Shown here: in pieces, positions 51,480 through 62,699 of the stretch
How positions within the stretch are numbered: position 1 is the stretch's first letter
Layout of the letters: every line of letters starts with the position of its first letter
Assembly: GCA_030141605.1 (NCBI GenBank)
Contig: JAQGDQ010000322.1
Location: 1 to 64,000 of the forward strand
Length of the DNA stretch: 64,000 bases
From: Tubiluchus corallicola
Taxonomy: Eukaryota > Animalia > Priapulida
Direction of reading: 5' to 3'
Notes under the pieces: generated by a model
What the model saw: the letters and a program-made list of their open reading frames with translations, nothing else
The model's database searches: none
Told to the model about the DNA's origin: nothing
Translations under genes and position numbers: made by a program

Positions 51480-52382
51480 AAATTTTCAGAAAACGAACTC
51501 TTATTGTTTGTTTAGGGTCAAAATTACAAATTACAAATCTTCATGTACAAAACCAGCAAGTATCAGCAAGTTGCGTAAAATACGAAAATTAGTGTGGACA
51601 TTAACCACTGCGTTTGGACCTGGTGCAAGTTCTGTGTAGTGCTTGGTCGAATCTGCAAACCAGCAGTCGGAAGGTAATACCTTCTAACCACGTCAAGACG
51701 CTAAGTTTATTATAGCGACTTTCGATCAACTTTCAAGCTTCAGTAACCTCAATATTAAAGTTTAACAAAGGTTAGGAAATGTTAACACAACACAAACAGT
51801 TTAGACAATCTTCTTAAAGCTAAGTAGTTTTTGACTGAATAACAAACTTGGGAAACTGATTAACTATTAAAGATTCATGCTCTTGCTTTATAGACACACG
51901 AAAGCTTTTCATAATCACAGGAAACGACAATAAACTCAAGACAAACAAGCCGATATTAGCATTAATAATACATGGATATGTCATTTCCCGGAAATATTGC
52001 CTGATGCAGATTTTATGTCATTGAATTCTACAGGTTTTTATTGAGCACAAAAGACAGAGAGACGCCAGAATAAAAAAATTATGACGTACAGGTGAAGAAA
52101 TTGTAAACGGGAGAAGAACTTACAGAATACATTTTGCAATCGCTATCGAATCAGCAGCCTGTTCTACTGAACCTTGTTAATGCATATCAGATCTCAAGTG
52201 TGAGACGTTTCAACTCTAGCGGCGTTTGCAAGAATCTCGTGATTTTAAATGATTTCTCATAGTTTCACAGTAATTACAAATTACCAACTAGCGCTCTGAA
52301 ATAGACGTCTTTGCGTATTATCAAACAGAATACATTACTTATATAGAAATAATTTACTCCACTCTACATTGTATGACCACTA

Positions 52383-52840
52383 CAGTCATTTGCAAAAGTT
52401 TAAGACCAAGCTCGAGTTTTCGGGATTTTCATCATACTGTACCTGAATGGCCTGGAAACGGCCCGGACCTCAATCCGATAGAGAATCTCTGGGAGATACT
52501 GAAGGATAAGGTGGCAGACAGGCAGCCATCAAGTGCTGAAGACTTGCGAAGAGTTATCAAGGACGTTTGGGTTAAAGAAATTACTTCCGAGTACTGCCAA
52601 AACCTAATTTCCAGTATGCCTCTTAGAATGAAGGCAGTGATTGACAACTTCGGCAGCCATACAAAGTACTAAAATGTTCAAGGACTGTGACTATTTTTGG
52701 ATAAAAACATACAAACTATGCTGTAGTATATTTTTCTAGAAGAATAAATGAATAGTTTTTAGATGGAACCGTGTTAAACGATGGTTTTTGACAATTTTCA
52801 GGAAAAAATCGCTTTGGTCTTAAACTTTTGCAATTGATTG
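52383..52840 (+). mobile_element. Internally deleted Tc1-like transposon, 458 bp
   Basis: TA TSDs; ~27-bp TIR CA(G/A)TCA(T/A)TTGCAAAAGTTTAAGACCAA; retains the transposase C-terminus WPGNGPDLNPIENLW...MPLRMKAVI...GSHTKY. Confidence 0.92.
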
Positions 52841-53034
52841 TACAACAACACTAACTGCCAATAAAGTAACCTCTATGGTGTCCGTGGTAATCCGTACGCG
52901 ACAACTAAGTCTACACCATAAGAGCAGTACCTAACTTAAATAAACTGCATGTTACATGAATACATATTATCACAGGAAGAAAGCACTCATCGACGTCATG
53001 ACTCAGATCCACTTTGTCTGACGAGAGGAACTCA

Positions 53035-53224
53035 TCATGTCATTCGGATCACATCATTCCACTCATCGGTTTCCGCAAGAATTGGGACTTCTGTTGACGG
53101 TGCTGTAGTTGTCGTTGCTGTCGTTGTCGTAGTTGTAGTCGCTGTTGGCGAACAGTTTACATATTGAAATGTTGTTAAGCTTACTTGTTCTACATGGTTT
53201 AAGTAAGTTGTGTCTACTGTGGTC
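53035..53224 (-). CDS. TMEM106B: TMEM106B-like protein, terminal coding exon
   Basis: Acceptor ttttttcattttctag; phase-2 start; TTVDTTYLNHVEQVSLTTFQYVNC matches recalled human [24 protein letters not shown]; then a Thr-rich tail and TGA TGA. The symbol denotes a family homolog; orthology is not established. Confidence 0.88.
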
Positions 53225-54099: not shown

Positions 54100-55285
54100 A
54101 GAGATAAACAATAAAACATTATGTGCCATAATTATGCTTTAAAACAGTTGATTTAGAGAGAGGAACAATAACACCTTATGTGCCATAACTATGCTTTAAA
54201 ACAGTTGATTTAGAGAGAGGAACAATAACACATTATGTGCCATAACTATGCTTTAAAACAGTTGATTTAGAGAGAGGAACAATAACACATTATGTGCCAT
54301 AACTATGCTTTAAAACAGTTGATTTAAAGAGAGGAACAATAACACATGATGTGCCATAACTATGCTCTAAAACAGTTGATTTAGAGAGAGGAACAATAAC
54401 ACATTATGTGCCATAACTATGCTCTAAAACAGTTGATTTAGAGAGAGGAACAATAACACATTATGTGCCATAATTATGCTTTAAAACAGTTGATTTAAAG
54501 ACAGGAACAATAACACATTATGTGCCATAACTATGCTTTAAAACAGTTTATTTAGAGAGAGGAACAATAACACATTATGTGCCATAATTATGCTTTAAAA
54601 CAGTTTATTTAGAGAGAGGAACAATAACACATGTGCCATAACTATTCTTTAAAACAGTTGATTTAGAGAGAAGAACAATAACACATTATGTGCCATAATT
54701 ATGCTTTAAAACAGTTGATTTAAAGAGAGGAACAATAACACATTATGTGACATAACTATGCTGTAAAACAGTTGATTTAAAGAGAGGAACAATAACACAT
54801 TATGTGCCATAACTATGCTTTAAAACAGTTGATTTAGAGAGAGGAACAATAACACATTATGTGCCATAACTATGCTTTAAAACAGTTGATTTAGAGAGAG
54901 GAACAATAACACATTATGTGCCATAACTATGCTTTAAAACAGTTGATTTAGAGAGAGGAACAATAACACATTATGTGCCATAACTATGCTTTAAAACAGT
55001 TTATTTAGAGAGATAAACAATAACACATTATGTGCCATAACTATGCTTTAAAACAGTTTATTTAGAGAGATAAACAATAACACATTATGTGCCATAACTA
55101 TGCTTTAAAACAGTTTATTTAGAGAGATAAACAATAACACATTATGTGCCATAACTATGCTTTAAAACAGTTTATTTAGAGAGATAAACAATAACACATT
55201 ATGTGCCATAACTATGCTTTAAAACAGTTGATTTGGAGAGAGGAACAATAACACATTATGTGCCATAACTATGCTTTAAAAGCAG
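54100..55285. repeat. 57-bp minisatellite, ~21 copies
   Basis: Unit agagagaggaacaataacacattatgtgccataactatgctttaaaacagttgattt. Confidence 0.96.
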
Positions 55286-55697
55286 TTTAGTTGAAGAGAA
55301 GAACACGCGAATCATACATGATGGTACCATATGACTGAAGTAAGTTTATCAGGAGTTTCTTTTTGAAGGGGGCGACAAGTGTCGATTGATTAGTTATCTC
55401 ACATGTTTCATTTATAAAGTGACATGATTTATAAAGTTTCATGTGAAATACGTGAAATCGGAAAAACTGTAATTTCCGCTTACATAATGCAATAATTCTT
55501 TTCACAGTTCCAGCGATTAATGATGATCGTGAAAAGGTCAAAGGTTAAGTGCACCAGACAACACAATTGTGTACACTTGACAATGCCTTGCAGCCAAAGC
55601 TGTTGTAATAGTTACCGTATTAACAGCTAGCTAGAACTTTGCCTAGTTCATTTTTTCTTGTTCCCAAGCAAAATCCTGCTCGTAAATCACTCTACAT

Positions 55698-56599: not shown

Positions 56600-57400
56600 T
56601 GAGGCTGTGGGTGAAACAATCATGCAGTAAAAAATTCCACAGATAAGAGGTCAGGGGAAAGTATATTTATACCTTTTGTTACCTAACTAAATCATCTAAT
56701 GAAGGCAGCAAAAGGGAGCTTCCAACCAAATTGTCGGCATTTAGGGGGGAATTACAGTTCGGGAATTATGGTCTCGACAGCTTCTGGTGAAGAAAGAAAC
56801 AACTGACCTTGAATGAACATGAAAATACATGGCTGACAACATATCAGACCCAACCAGATTACCAACAAGATTTGTCAATCTATCAAGTGGGTTGAGGTAA
56901 CGAGGCTGAGGCATGAAAATGCATGGTTGACAACATATCAGACTCAACCAGATTAACAATACGATTCGTCAATCTATCAAGTGGGTTGAGGTAACAAGGC
57001 TGAGGCATGAAAATATGTGGCTGACAACATATCAGACTCAACCAGATTAACAATAAGATTCGTCAATCTATCAAGTGGGTTGAGGTAACAAGGTCGAGGC
57101 ACCAGCCCTATTGTGGCTGCAGTATTCCATGCAAGAAAAGACAGTTGAGATCGAGTCCAGCACTGGAGGGACAGATTTGGATCGTCTTGACTACAATACA
57201 GGTAATCTCCTTTTGATAAAGCAAACGATATCTTTGTACGTCTCTGAAAGATACTTTTTCATCTAAGATTGGAACACAAGCACAGGGCAAGCAAACATGG
57301 CAACCCCTTCAAAGCGATACGTTTTCCACATTTTCTAATTGGGAGTTGTTCAGTTTCGTACGGAATCGTATCATTAGCTGGTTTAAAAACCGTGAGATTA
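56600..57400 (-). mobile_element. Degraded Jockey/CR1-like LINE ORF2 fragment containing a 94-bp triplication (56818-57092)
   Basis: Minus-strand remnants in the expected order: LCSNLR*KKY, MEYCSH..AGA (~57100-57132), PLTSYLWN (~56633-56657). Confidence 0.55.
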
Positions 57401-57495
57401 AAAACTGATAATCTGTTAGTCGGTAGCTATTTGAGAAAACGAATTCTTGAAATTTGTGTGTAAATAAACATGGTTAAATTAAAAGTAGTACTTAC

Positions 57496-57549
57496 ACAAA
57501 AGCAAAAGCAATGTAATGCATCCATGTGGTGGGACTACTGCAAAATTTC
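57496..57549 (-). CDS. TMEM106B: TMEM106B-like internal exon (54 bp)
   Basis: ttctctgtag|...|gtaagt; phase 2/2; KFCSSPTTWMHYIAFAF(V) aligns without gaps to recalled human DFCTLISIKVHNIVLMMQ. Confidence 0.85.
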
Positions 57550-57804
57550 CTACAGAGAAATAATTTCAAATTGGTGCATGCGTTAAGTCTACTAATTAGT
57601 GCAGTTTTTTAATGAGGCAGTTTCAAACCATTGCATCCAAATTAAACAGCAAATAACTGGAAATTTTAACAATTCTGCTAAAAGGAAAAGAGTTACCAAC
57701 AAATGTACTGTACTGTTCATAGCATTCGAAAACAACATTTGAAACTGCCCACGTGTTAGCCAGTCACCCATACAACTACCACACTACCTACAGCAGTTAC
57801 TTAC

Positions 57805-57849
57805 ATAAACGTGATGAACACCTCGTTGCCCATCATCTTGCAAAATAAG
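57805..57849 (-). CDS. TMEM106B: Candidate alternative (mutually exclusive) TMEM106B-like exon (45 bp)
   Basis: tctttctattttcattctctag|...|gtaagt; phase 2/2; LFCKMMGNEVFITF(M), paralogous to the 54-bp exon. Confidence 0.65.
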
Positions 57850-58013
57850 CTAGAGAATGAAAATAGAAAGACAAAACTTCAGACAAGAGTAGCAACAAAA
57901 CACTACACAAAAAGCGTATCCCATAATCCTGTGCGTGTGCACAAGATCACGCTGTTATTAAGAAAAAAGTGGTTCACCCGAACGGGGACTCCGTTTTTGC
58001 GTATTAACATTAA

Positions 58014-58553
58014 AGGAAAACCGGACGATTTTGTAGACATTAGTTCAAAATAAAGCATACTCTAAAATACAGAAAACTACAATAGCTTTTTTAAAATCAA
58101 AGCTTAGATTAAATAATAATTACCTTGGATAGTTAAATTTTGTTAAATTTTTAAAGCTATGCACAGCTCAGCTAATCCACTAAGACTGACAATGGCACCT
58201 TTTTATCACATTCACGTGGCCGACAAATAGGCGTTGTACATTGATAAGCATGATCATGACCTGAAGAGATGTCAGTGTGATGTAGAGCCCATTTTCATGA
58301 CATCACATCAGCGTCTTATAGCAACGTTCGCTTACACAAACCTGCTTGACGTGCAAGGAAGATGTCTACCATTGCATAAAATGTGGTTAATTTGTGATGT
58401 AAGTGACAGGCTGTGTTCGGTTGCCGTTAATTAACTTTCCAAGGTAATGTTTCAAATATTAGAAACAACTGCTAATTTTTACACGTAACAAAATGTATAT
58501 TTTGGACAGTAAATGAAAATGAGATCGAGTCTAATCGAACGTCCGGTTTTCCT
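58014..58553. mobile_element. Kolobok-like MITE (family D), 540 bp
   Basis: TTAA|AGGAAAACCGGACG ... CGTCCGGTTTTCCT|TTAA: perfect 14-bp TIR and TTAA TSD. Confidence 0.88.
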
Positions 58554-58879
58554 TTAACTACAAATGATACGGTGAATCAAAATGCCATCAATGTGAAAAA
58601 ACACTTGTTGTGTTGACACCATTTGCAAATTGGTGATGTTAGCGGGCACTTGGGCTAGCAAACAATTACTGTTACATCGTAATTTACACACCACAGGCCC
58701 AACCAAGACAAATAAACAAGCTAAGCATGGCAGTGGCGGAAACCTATTAAATTTAGACAGAAGCGCCTACACATAAATCTTTACGCACCGTGGTATTAAG
58801 AATGGCAACACCGATGCAGGTCAGTTGTATGCAATAAAATATTTTGACATGTCAAACTGCTTTAATCATCTCTTTCGTT

Positions 58880-60199
58880 ATCCTTTAAGTTAAACTATTT
58901 AAAATAGTTCATATTAAAATAAAAATTGCACAGACAGCACAGCTTTTAAATAAGTATTCATAAAAATTCATTTAGAGGAAACAAAAAATGCATAAAAAAA
59001 TGGGTAGAAAGTTAGTGACACTGAAATATTAGTGTGACAGAAAACTAACATTAGTTAATAAACGCAATGAAAACAAAAACAAAAATTACTAATAGATTAC
59101 TGCATAATTAACAAAGTTTAAATATTTGACAGATATGAACTCTGTTGAAGTTCAAAAACTCTTTGCTGGATATTTCAGTAACTGTAGACCTCATGAGTTT
59201 ACCTCAGAAAACATTTTAAAGTCAATGCATCTATTATATAAGATGAATGGTGAGAGAACCAATGTAAATTTAATATTGTTTCTGTTTCGGTAATTTAAAG
59301 CACAAGAAAACCCTCCACTTACATAAAGCTTAAAAAACTCGTCTTGAAATTTTATACCACTTATTTAACGCCCTTTTGCATACAGCCATAACGCTGTATG
59401 AAACGTAAATTTAAACTCCCGCGATGACCATTAGACACATCCAATTTGGCGAGAAATCATTTGAAAGAAGTTTAGATGACACTGAGTAAACTTTTAAAAA
59501 ATAGTCAGAGCATTCGTAGTGCACACATCGCTAACTAAATAAAATTTTAAATTACTATATCTTGTCAATAAGATTAAAAATACATTTTTGGTTAGTTAAT
59601 GGTGCACCCTGGAGGGTGAGTCATTGACATTTTACCAATTGGTGAAAACATTTTAAATAATTAATAATTTTCTTTTCTAGTTACATAAGTCTTTCCAGCA
59701 GGTAAACGAAATGCTAAGTAATATAACTTTGCATGGAAAGTTTTTTGGGACATAATTTAACATTTCCTTTTCTTCCCCTGGTTTATGATGTGCGTAAGTG
59801 ACGTCATGTAATGGCATTGTCGGACTGTGGGAACTTTAAAATGAAAACAAACAAAAAATCCTTTCAACACGAGTACGATATACGCAAAAAATGTTATAAA
59901 GTAATATAATTTTTAAAGCCGTTTTTTGAAACCTACTTCAGGTACCTCTTTTCTTGTCCTTTAAGTTAAACTATTTGAAACAGTTCACATATTAAAATAA
60001 AAATTGCACAGACAGCACAGCTTTTAAATAACTATTCATAAAATTAATTTACAGGAAACAAAAAAATGCATAAAAAAATGGGTAGTAAGTTAGTGACACT
60101 GAAATATTAGTGTGACAGAAAACTAACATTGGTTAATAAACGCAGTGAAAACAAAAACAAAAATTACTAATAGATTACTGCATAATCAACAAAGTTTAA
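58880..60199. repeat. ~240-bp direct duplication (58880-59120 and 59957-60199)
   Basis: tcctttaagttaaactattt...ttactgcataa(t/c)aacaaagtttaa occurs twice, 1.08 kb apart. Confidence 0.88.
59299..59779 (+). mobile_element. Family B MITE, full length, single degenerate 43-bp unit
   Basis: TTAA|AGCACAAGAAAACC ... CCTTTTCTTCCCCT; unit at ~59588-59632. Confidence 0.7.
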
Positions 60200-60305
60200 T
60201 TTAGTTAGTAAATCAATTAATGCAAGTTACTTAAAACATGAGAGAGTTCTCCTGAGAGTTTGCCATCTTTAGTGTAAAAATGATGAATGCTCTTTACGTG
60301 GTGAA

Positions 60306-60614
60306 CGCGTGGCATCCGGAATACATTACGCACACACTTGGCATCCCGAATACGTTACGCACATGCGTGGCATCCGGAATACGCTACGCACACGCGTGGC
60401 ATCCGGAATACGCTACCCACACGCGTGGCATCCGGAATACGTTACGCACACGCGTGGCATCCGGAATACGTTACGCACACGCGTGGCATCCGGAATACGC
60501 TACGCACACGCGTGGCATCCGGAATACGCTACCCACACGCGTGGCATCCGGAATACGTTACGCACACGCGTGGCATCCGGAATACGTTACGCACACGCGT
60601 GGCATCGCACACGC
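60306..60614. repeat. 29-bp CpG-rich minisatellite, ~10 copies
   Basis: Unit cgcgtggcatccggaatacgttacgcaca. Confidence 0.94.
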
Positions 60615-60804: not shown

Positions 60805-61821
60805 TGAATACACTGTCTATCCAAATGATGAGGCCCGTTAGGGTGAATACACTGTCTATACGGCTGATGAGGCCCGTTAGGGTGAATACACTGTCTATTT
60901 AGCTGACGAGGCCCGTTAGGGTGAATACACTGTCTATCCAGAGATGAGGCCCGTTAGGGTGAATACACTGTCTATCCGGCTGATGAAGCCCGTTAGGGTG
61001 AATACACTGTCTATCCAGATGATGAAGCCCGTTAGGGTGAATACACTGTTTATCCGGCTGATGAGGCCCGTTAGGGTGAATACACTGTCTATCCAGATGA
61101 TGAAGCCCGTTAGGGTGAATACACTGTCTATCCAGATGATGAGTCCCGTTAGGGTGAATACACTGTCTATCCAAATGACGAGGCCCGTTAGGGTGAATAC
61201 ACTGTTTATGCGGCTGATGAGGCCCGTTAGGGTGAATACACTGTCTATCCAAATGATGAGGCCCGTTAGGGTGAATACACTGTTTATGCGGCTGATGAGG
61301 CCCGTTAGGGTGAATACACTGTCTATCCAAATGATGAGGCCCGTTAGGGTGAATACACTGTTTATGCGGCTGATGAGGCCCGTTAGGGTGAATACACTGT
61401 CTATCCAAATGATGAGGCCCGTTAGGGTGAATACACTGTTTATGCGGCTGATGAGGCCCGTTAGGGTGAATACACTGTCTATCCAAATGATGAGGCCCGT
61501 TAGGGTGAATACACTGTTTATGCGGCTGATGAGGCCCGTTAGGGTGAATACACTGTCTATCCAAATGATGAGGCCCGTTAGGGTGAATACACTGTTTATG
61601 CGGCTGATGAGGCCCGTTAGGGTGAATACACTGTCTATCCAAATGATGAGGCCCGTTAGGGTGAATACACTGTTTATGCGGCTGATGAGGCCCGTTAGGG
61701 TGAATACACTGTCTATCCAAATGATGAGGCCCGTTAGGGTGAATACACTGTTTATGCGGCTGATGAGGCCCGTTAGGGTGAATACACTGTTTATGCGGCT
61801 GATGATGCCCGTTAGGGTGAA
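60805..61821 (+). repeat. 39-bp minisatellite (~26 units; 78-bp A/B dimer in the right part)
   Basis: tgaatacactgt(ctatccaaa/ttatgcggc)tgatgaggcccgttaggg. Confidence 0.96.
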
Positions 61822-62508: not shown

Positions 62509-62699
62509 GCTATGTAACCTTGGTCATCTTTGAACGTGATATTCATCGGAATCTTGACCGTCTCTTCGGATCTTAGACCAATCTTGACCGAGTCAGAGAG
62601 CTTCGTTTCACTAATTAATTTCGTATCATACATTGCTACCATCGTTATGTTTTCTGCCACAACTTTTACAAAATTCTTATTTGAAATGTTGAAAGAATT
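62509..62699 (-). CDS. TMEM106B: TMEM106B-like luminal-domain exon (191 bp)
   Basis: aatttttcag|...|gtaagtat; phase 0/2; NSFNISNKNFVKVVAENIT...IGLRSEETVKIPMNITFKDDQGYI(A) matches recalled human NTLNITNNNYYSVEVENIT...[25 protein letters not shown], including the NxS/T sequons. Upstream exons lie beyond the window. Confidence 0.88.

What the first reader, a model, noticed from the sequence alone, without database searches (positions are those of the whole stretch)
57496..57849. Duplicated, probably mutually exclusive exons in the TMEM106 luminal domain
Seen: two small minus-strand exons 255 bp apart, each with a pyrimidine-tract AG acceptor and a GTAAGT donor, both phase 2/2. Spliced between 62509 and 53224 they give QGYIA-KFCSSPTTWMHYIAFAFV-TTVDTTY (54 bp) or QGYIA-LFCKMMGNEVFITFM-TTVDTTY (45 bp). 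Both keep the FC motif at the same position and end in a hydrophobic strand. Known: that Cys corresponds to human TMEM106B C214 (disulfide with C253), inside the luminal fragment that forms amyloid filaments. Inference: the exon was tandemly duplicated and gives two isoforms with different loops; including both would repeat the segment and leave an extra Cys. I know of no description of this for TMEM106.
Basis: partly seen in the sequence, partly recalled or inferred. Interest (0 to 1): 0.8.

Follow-up and report, generated by a model that had tools for sequence, protein, structure and literature searches.

The report
Swappable tip exon in worm TMEM106
An animal gene, likely from a priapulid worm, for the lysosomal membrane protein TMEM106 carries two intact versions of one small exon side by side; spliced transcripts from close relatives use the shorter one alone and the longer one keeps the family's usual sequence, so the gene likely makes two proteins predicted to differ at the tip of the domain that faces into the lysosome.

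Summary
Observation confirmed. Two phase-2 exons, A (57805-57849, 45 nt) and B (57496-57549, 54 nt), lie 255 nt apart on the minus strand between two TMEM106 exons. Two assembled transcripts from close relatives (protein P0001, run X2) join upstream exon > A > terminal exon and skip B. No transcript with B was found. B is nevertheless likely alive. It ranks 1 of 253 possible in-frame micro-exons against a family profile. It keeps the family's usual length and its Trp and His. It is 8/17 identical to the Priapulus caudatus RefSeq model, about like the constitutive upstream exon (34/63). Models place the swapped segment on the capping helix with the disulfide Cys, the next loop and half of strand 6; A shortens the loop by three residues and loses Trp and His. 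Best reading: an old tandem duplicate pair spliced mutually exclusively by regulation (0.70). Frameshift cannot enforce the choice, and steric blocking looks unlikely. Still unshown: B inclusion, absence of A+B joins, and duplication at DNA level (p about 0.05). This is a known kind of splicing. It was not found for TMEM106 in my paper searches or in earlier scan notes. The amyloid link is incidental.

The parts
62509..62699 (-). Upstream constitutive TMEM106 luminal exon; ends in phase 2 with a GTAAGT donor
   Evidence: Pfam PF07092 positions 31-93; 61 of 63 identical to P0001 and 34 of 63 to P. caudatus P0079; its 3' end is joined to exon A in contig X2
57805..57849 (-). Alternative exon A, 45 nt, phase 2/2; derived short form (second half of capping helix with the Cys, 3-residue loop, first half of strand 6)
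   Evidence: Spliced in without B in P0001 and in X2 record 4; peptide identical in P0001; model
57550..57804 (-). 255-nt intron between A and B; G/U-rich stretch after A's donor; branch-like motifs 49 nt from A's donor and 46 and 33 nt before B's acceptor
   Evidence: DNA run X1 covers 57426-57779 unspliced in two overlapping contigs
57616..57749 (-). Perfect 12-bp inverted repeat (arms 57738-57749 and 57616-57627, 110 nt apart); candidate regulatory stem, function untested
   Evidence: 2 of 400 shuffles reach 12 bp; the whole-intron fold is not exceptional (z -1.42, 17 of 200 shuffles as good)
57496..57549 (-). Alternative exon B, 54 nt, phase 2/2; family-typical form with Trp at Cys+6 and His at Cys+8
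   Evidence: Rank 1 of 253 candidates; 8 of 17 identical to P. caudatus XP_014674669.1; spacing shared by 50 of 80 homologs; no transcript found
53035..53224 (-). Terminal coding exon: rest of strand 6, strand 7, second disulfide Cys, Thr-rich tail, stop
   Evidence: Pfam PF07092 positions 113-138; its 5' end is joined to exon A in X2

Best explanation
This TMEM106 gene holds two intact exons for the same 15-18 residue slot, which likely arose by an old tandem duplication and are likely spliced one or the other into each message, giving two proteins predicted to differ at the membrane-distal tip of the lumenal domain. Shown: both exons with their splice sites; A joined to both flanking exons with B skipped in two relatives' contigs; B's match to the family and to Priapulus caudatus. 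Inferred: B is still used (in some tissue or stage); A and B exclude each other because the slot runs from mid-helix to mid-strand and a double insert would add a third Cys. Because both lengths are multiples of three and B has an ordinary near branch-like motif, the choice is likely made by regulation: A, with the stronger acceptor, as the default; B switched on by a splicing factor, perhaps helped by the 12-bp stem between them. The B protein would keep the family's longer loop with Trp and His. The A protein would keep the fold and disulfide but present a tight loop without them, and so would likely bind lumenal partners differently.
For: Spliced upstream>A>terminal in X2: the contig covers 57804-57848 only, and its two loose ends match the flanking exons with 6 differences in the 60 letters shown, all synonymous by my reading by eye. 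P0001 from a 1,205-nt Logan contig has A's peptide unchanged and no B; it differs from X2 at one flanking residue, so they are separate sequences. B: 1 of 253; score 56 against the P. caudatus segment versus 9 for A and at most 11 for 115 decoys; 8/17 identity against 34/63 for the upstream exon. His at Cys+8 in 41 of 50 and Trp at Cys+6 in 20 of 50 same-length homologs. P0001 and P. caudatus are sisters (SH-aLRT 97, quick tree, 42 rows). A and B have diverged almost to chance at DNA level, yet B is undamaged. The A form folds confidently and matches human 8b7d (E 2e-13, TM 0.85 on target, rmsd 1.9). The 14-residue strand is in register in the A-type and B-type models. The A+B form scores no better than A alone (74.9 vs 75.0) and below B alone (88.9).
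Against: No transcript or protein with this species' B was found; X2 had no cover on B. Both A-containing records come from relatives, not demonstrably from the window's own population. Only contigs were available, so rare A+B joins could not be seen. The P. caudatus record is a partial predicted model whose RNA support I did not see, and I could not check whether that species has A. DNA likeness of A and B is marginal: 10 of 115 decoys and 254 of 5000 shuffles reach it. No second lineage with a swap was seen among 96 close protein pairs. The stem has no conservation test.
Confidence: 0.7

Rival explanations
1. Exon replacement: A has taken over as the constitutive exon and B is a recently silenced relic of the ancestral exon.
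For: 2 of 2 transcript-derived records use A, none uses B. B has the weaker pyrimidine tract (9 of 15). Seven of 80 homologs manage with a loop as short as A's or shorter.
Against: B is as close to P. caudatus as the constitutive exon is (8/17 vs 34/63), with an open frame, the usual length and a consensus donor, although A and B split long ago. Two contigs are a small sample, and assemblers drop minor paths.
Confidence: 0.13
2. The two exons alternate, but A is intron sequence turned into an exon rather than a duplicate of B.
For: A-B DNA similarity is marginal (254 of 5000 shuffles). A scores within the decoy range against the family HMM (rank 6 of 253) and against the P. caudatus segment (9 vs decoy maximum 11).
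Against: A has the same phase, Phe-Cys at the same offset (1 of 115 decoys), peptide likeness to B reached by 1 of 115 decoys, and a strand in register with B's.
Confidence: 0.1
3. A and B are independent cassette exons that are often included together, giving a longer protein with a duplicated loop.
For: Both are multiples of three and the A+B form is open. The intron is 255 nt with a normal near branch-like motif, so nothing physical forbids joining.
Against: 0 of 2 records show A+B. The A+B form has three Cys and repeats half a helix and half a core strand. No homolog among 222 shows a doubled Cys segment.
Confidence: 0.07

Closest known systems
Human TMEM106B luminal domain (PDB 8b7d; PMC10409496 passages)
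   Same: Same fold and family. The swapped segment covers the second half of helix alpha1 (208-216), the Phe213 and Cys214 equivalents, and runs into strand 6. Met210 and Phe213 in that helix form a protein-binding surface in the human protein.
   Different: No duplicated exon was found described for human TMEM106A/B/C. Phe and Cys are kept in both worm exons, so the change lies mainly in the loop after them.
FGFR1-3 exons IIIb/IIIc (PMC5703972 passages)
   Same: A tandem exon duplicate that swaps part of a beta-sandwich domain on the outer side of the membrane; the choice is set by splicing factors.
   Different: FGFR is conserved across chordates with shown tissue control and ligand effects. 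Here the pair is seen in one lineage, and regulator, tissue pattern and effect are untested.
OGDH exons 4a/4b, steric exclusion by distant branch points (PMC7969005 passages)
   Same: Short intron between two alternatives; a branch-like motif lies 49 nt from A's donor, at the ~50-nt threshold.
   Different: Eight AG dinucleotides lie between that motif and B's acceptor, there is no long pyrimidine tract behind it, and a near motif exists 33 nt before B, so this mechanism is not favoured.
Priapulus caudatus TMEM106B-like XP_014674669.1 (P0079)
   Same: Closest named relative (51-55% identity; sister in tree); it uses a B-type segment and shares the Thr-rich tail.
   Different: A partial predicted model; no A-type form is on record in its cluster (1 member).

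Membership tests
TMEM106 family | PF21002 N-terminal region plus PF07092 luminal domain | tested here: met
   Window exons hit PF07092; P0001 has both domains above the curated cut-off. The N-terminal exons lie outside the window.
TMEM106 family | Seven-strand beta sandwich capped by one helix, with the two conserved Cys | tested here: met
   Model of P0001 matches 8b7d; C219 invariant and C255 nearly invariant in 82 rows. The disulfide itself was not measured.
Mutually exclusive exons (criteria of PMC5740500, passages) | Neighbouring internal exons, same reading frame, similar length, no stop | tested here: met
Mutually exclusive exons (criteria of PMC5740500) | Sequence similarity between the two exons | tested here: inconclusive
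   Peptide likeness reached by 1 of 115 decoys; DNA likeness by 10 of 115 decoys and 254 of 5000 shuffles
Mutually exclusive exons (criteria of PMC5740500) | Junction from exon A that bridges B | tested here: met
   X2 contig and P0001, both from close relatives; contigs, not counted reads
Mutually exclusive exons (criteria of PMC5740500) | Junction into exon B that bridges A | tested here: inconclusive
   Not seen in the one RNA-like run available or the protein searches; only the predicted P. caudatus model has that form
Mutually exclusive exons (criteria of PMC5740500) | No reads joining A to B | not testable with these tools
   Only contigs were served; 0 of 2 records show the join
Frameshift/NMD-enforced exclusion | Joint inclusion shifts the frame | tested here: not met
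   45 and 54 nt; the A+B form is open
Steric (distant branch point) exclusion | Branch point within ~50 nt of the upstream donor, followed by an AG-free pyrimidine zone | tested here: inconclusive
   Motif at 49 nt, but 8 AGs follow and a near motif exists; branch points not mapped
Docking/selector RNA pairing | One site able to pair with competing sites beside each exon, conserved with covariation | tested here: inconclusive
   One 12-bp stem inside the middle intron (-22 kcal/mol); the best alternative partners are weaker (-17 or less) and uncontrolled; no relatives' introns to test conservation

The most novel reading that the evidence does not exclude
Priapulid worms have evolved a tissue- or stage-switched splice choice that rebuilds the binding tip of TMEM106: one isoform keeps the family's Trp/His loop and the other removes it while keeping fold and disulfide. 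This would be a natural pair of variants for asking what that conserved loop of the human disease protein binds (a partner, a lipid or a virus), with the intronic stem as part of the switch.
Probability: 0.3. Interest if true: 0.6.

Novelty: new member of a known kind. Interest (0 to 1): 0.38.

Why it matters
The molecular job of TMEM106 proteins is still unsettled (lipid transfer is a prediction in bioRxiv 10.1101/2021.03.12.435176, passages). The swapped segment is the tip of the luminal domain, next to the residues that bind coronavirus spike in the human protein, and it holds a His kept in 41 of 50 same-length homologs. If one animal keeps both a His/Trp form and a form without them, that loop probably has a tunable function, and the two forms give a ready comparison. 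As splicing biology it is ordinary: two-exon duplicate pairs are common.

Tried and rejected
No whole genome is held for this window, so paralogs and the gene's 5' exons could not be checked. The run search listed 2 runs and no RNA holder on record. X2 had no cover on exon B; that is a hole in contigs, not evidence of silence. X1 is unspliced DNA, may be the window's own sample, and has no cover on A; its 0 differences over 57426-57635 were not used as evidence of constraint. The reads were laid only on 57110-60250 and 57300-57950, not on the whole gene span, so junctions were read from loose ends. A degenerate exon-B motif found 0 matches in metagenome contigs. P0001 gave 77 pattern hits there, 0 confirmed. 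The shorter-protein search gave 1 hit of 1 candidate. Search for the same swap elsewhere: among 222 proteins, 96 close pairs, 35 differ in the segment, all in Trichinella/Trichuris models that skip or truncate it; none is a swap. The 'strong splice site' filter passed 0 of 115 decoys, but B itself would fail it (9 of 15 pyrimidines), so it supports A only. For the HMM I left out P0001 and 8 of the other 59 hits whose segment was missing or broken; P0079 was not in the training set. Frameshift exclusion was rejected and steric exclusion is disfavoured. The careful tree did not finish; the quick tree was used. The window's own B form and the A+B form were not folded; P. caudatus P0079 stood in for B. 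Papers: 'TMEM106'+'mutually exclusive exons' gave 5 unrelated listings; +'priapul' 0; +'exon duplication' 0; TMEM106B splicing gave 10 listings, none on this by title or abstract start; priapulid/mutually exclusive/exon gave 8 unrelated listings. 'TMEM106' has 0 hits in the main text and in 10 readable supplements of PMC5740500, which include the lists of 1,399 validated exons; two files, among them probably the full candidate table, were too large to read.

Full report
Observation. The flanking exons, 62509-62699 and the terminal exon from 53224, hit Pfam TMEM106 at profile positions 31-93 and 113-138. The forms with A, B, both or neither are all open and carry 2, 2, 3 and 1 luminal Cys. GTAAGT occurs 5 times in the 9,284-nt span, twice at these exons.

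Whose gene. No genome is held. The closest named protein is Priapulus caudatus XP_014674669.1 (P0079; 51% over the luminal region; name). It groups with the window's relative P0001 at SH-aLRT 97 in a quick tree of 42 rows and 112 columns and shares the Thr-rich tail. A priapulid origin is therefore likely; this is inference from homology.

Exon A is spliced, and alone. P0001, a 293-residue protein from a 1,205-nt Logan contig, is 61 of 63 identical to the upstream exon and carries A's peptide unchanged between the two flanking exons, with no B. A 169-nt contig in run X2 (RNA is the tool's guess) lies on 57804-57848 only. Its two loose ends are the end of the upstream exon and the start of the terminal exon, which lie 4.7 and 4.6 kb away in the DNA. 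Comparing the 60 loose letters shown with the window by eye gives 6 differences, all synonymous. X2 and P0001 differ at one flanking residue, so they are separate sequences. Both come from relatives or divergent populations, so neither isoform is observed in the window's own population.

Exon B was not seen spliced but looks alive. No record with B turned up in three protein searches, the representative search, two metagenome scans or X2. Against an HMM of 51 homologs (P0001 and 8 broken models left out; P0079 not included), B ranks 1 of 253 open in-frame AG..GT candidates at 88.9 bits. The 251 others average 65.3 (sd 3.6, maximum 79.4); A ranks 6th at 75.0, A+B scores 74.9 and skipping both 54.4. 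B is 8 of 17 identical to the P. caudatus segment, against 34 of 63 for the upstream exon; its score is 56, A's is 9, and 115 decoys reach at most 11. Fifty of 80 homologs share B's Cys-to-Tyr spacing; among those 50, 41 have His at Cys+8 and 20 have Trp at Cys+6, both present in B and absent from A; 7 of 80 are as short as A or shorter. So B is the family-typical exon and A the derived one, and the evidence is complementary: transcripts for A, conservation for B.

Origin. A and B share phase, Phe-Cys offset (1 of 115 decoys) and a peptide likeness reached by 1 of 115 decoys, but DNA likeness is marginal (10 of 115 decoys; 254 of 5000 shuffles). An old duplication is the simplest reading and is inferred. 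Its age is also the argument against B being long dead. No swap of this segment was seen elsewhere: of 96 close pairs among 222 proteins, the 35 that differ here are Trichinella/Trichuris models that skip or cut it.

What changes in the protein. The P0001 (A) model has helix 214-221, a 3-residue loop and strand 225-238, with block pLDDT 90-98 over the luminal domain. It matches human 8b7d best (E 2e-13, TM 0.85 on target, rmsd 1.9). The P. caudatus (B-type) model has helix 74-84, a loop, a short helix 88-91 and strand 92-105. The strands are 14 residues in both and in register, so the 3-residue difference is in the loop. In human TMEM106B this helix crowns the domain, is held by Cys214-Cys253, and carries Met210 and Phe213 that bind SARS-CoV-2 spike (PMC10409496, passages). 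The same disulfide closes the 211-254 hairpin of the amyloid core (PMC9095482, passages), but nothing here bears on amyloid in a worm. The window's own B form and the A+B form were not folded.

How the choice is made. Frameshift cannot enforce it. A branch-like motif lies 49 nt from A's donor, at the ~50-nt steric threshold (PMC5740500 and PMC7969005, passages), but 8 AGs follow it and another motif sits 33 nt before B's acceptor with no AG behind it. A's acceptor is stronger (13 vs 9 of 15 pyrimidines), which fits A-only contigs. The middle intron holds a perfect 12-bp inverted repeat (57738-57749 with 57616-57627; 2 of 400 shuffles; longest in 36 tiles of the gene's span was 11), though the intron's overall fold is unremarkable (17 of 200 shuffles as good) and conservation could not be tested. 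I commit to regulated choice with A as default, possibly stem-assisted. That step is inferred.

Comparison and novelty. It works like FGFR IIIb/IIIc, a tandem duplicate that swaps part of an outer beta-sandwich domain (PMC5703972, passages). By the read-based criteria of PMC5740500, frame, length and the A-bridging junction are met, exon similarity and the B junction are inconclusive, and the absence of joining reads is untestable here. My paper searches and the 10 readable supplements of PMC5740500 (two files unreadable) gave no TMEM106 case; most subscription journals are not searched. Earlier scan notes hold no TMEM106 finding, while 342 notes mention duplicated mutually exclusive exons in other genes, which shows how common the kind is.

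Verdict. Real feature; likely a mutually exclusive duplicate pair (0.70); new member of a known kind; interest 0.38.

Noticed in passing
window 52996-53061, minus strand: The window's frame ends 8 residues after the acidic motif of the tail, at two in-frame stops. The 11-residue tail that P0001 has at that point lies in frame just behind them, so the window has 30 extra bases (or P0001 lost them) and a different C-terminus.
   Followed up: partly
run X2 against window 57804-57848 and flanking exons: X2 carries the same species label yet differs at 6 of the 60 flanking letters shown and 1 of 45 in exon A, far more than DNA run X1; possibly divergent populations or cryptic species.
   Followed up: no
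P0010, P0012, P0018, P0026, P0073, P0076, P0077: Trichinella and Trichuris gene models include, skip or truncate this same segment, which suggests the exon boundaries are old; these are predictions and may be annotation errors.
   Followed up: partly
window 53185-53190, minus strand: A donor-like GTAAGC lies inside the terminal exon just after the codons for the His-Val-Glu-Gln motif; P0001 reads through it.
   Followed up: no
window 52292-52672, plus strand: DDE_3 transposase remnant just downstream of the gene's stop codon.
   Followed up: partly
window 57576-57586, minus strand: A GCATG pentamer directly follows B's near branch-like motif; its likeness to an RBFOX site is recalled, not tested.
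   Followed up: no
window 54100-55305, 60305-60606, 60805-61821: Long minisatellites (57-, 29- and 39/78-nt units) in the introns flanking the exon pair; none lies in the intron between A and B.
   Followed up: no
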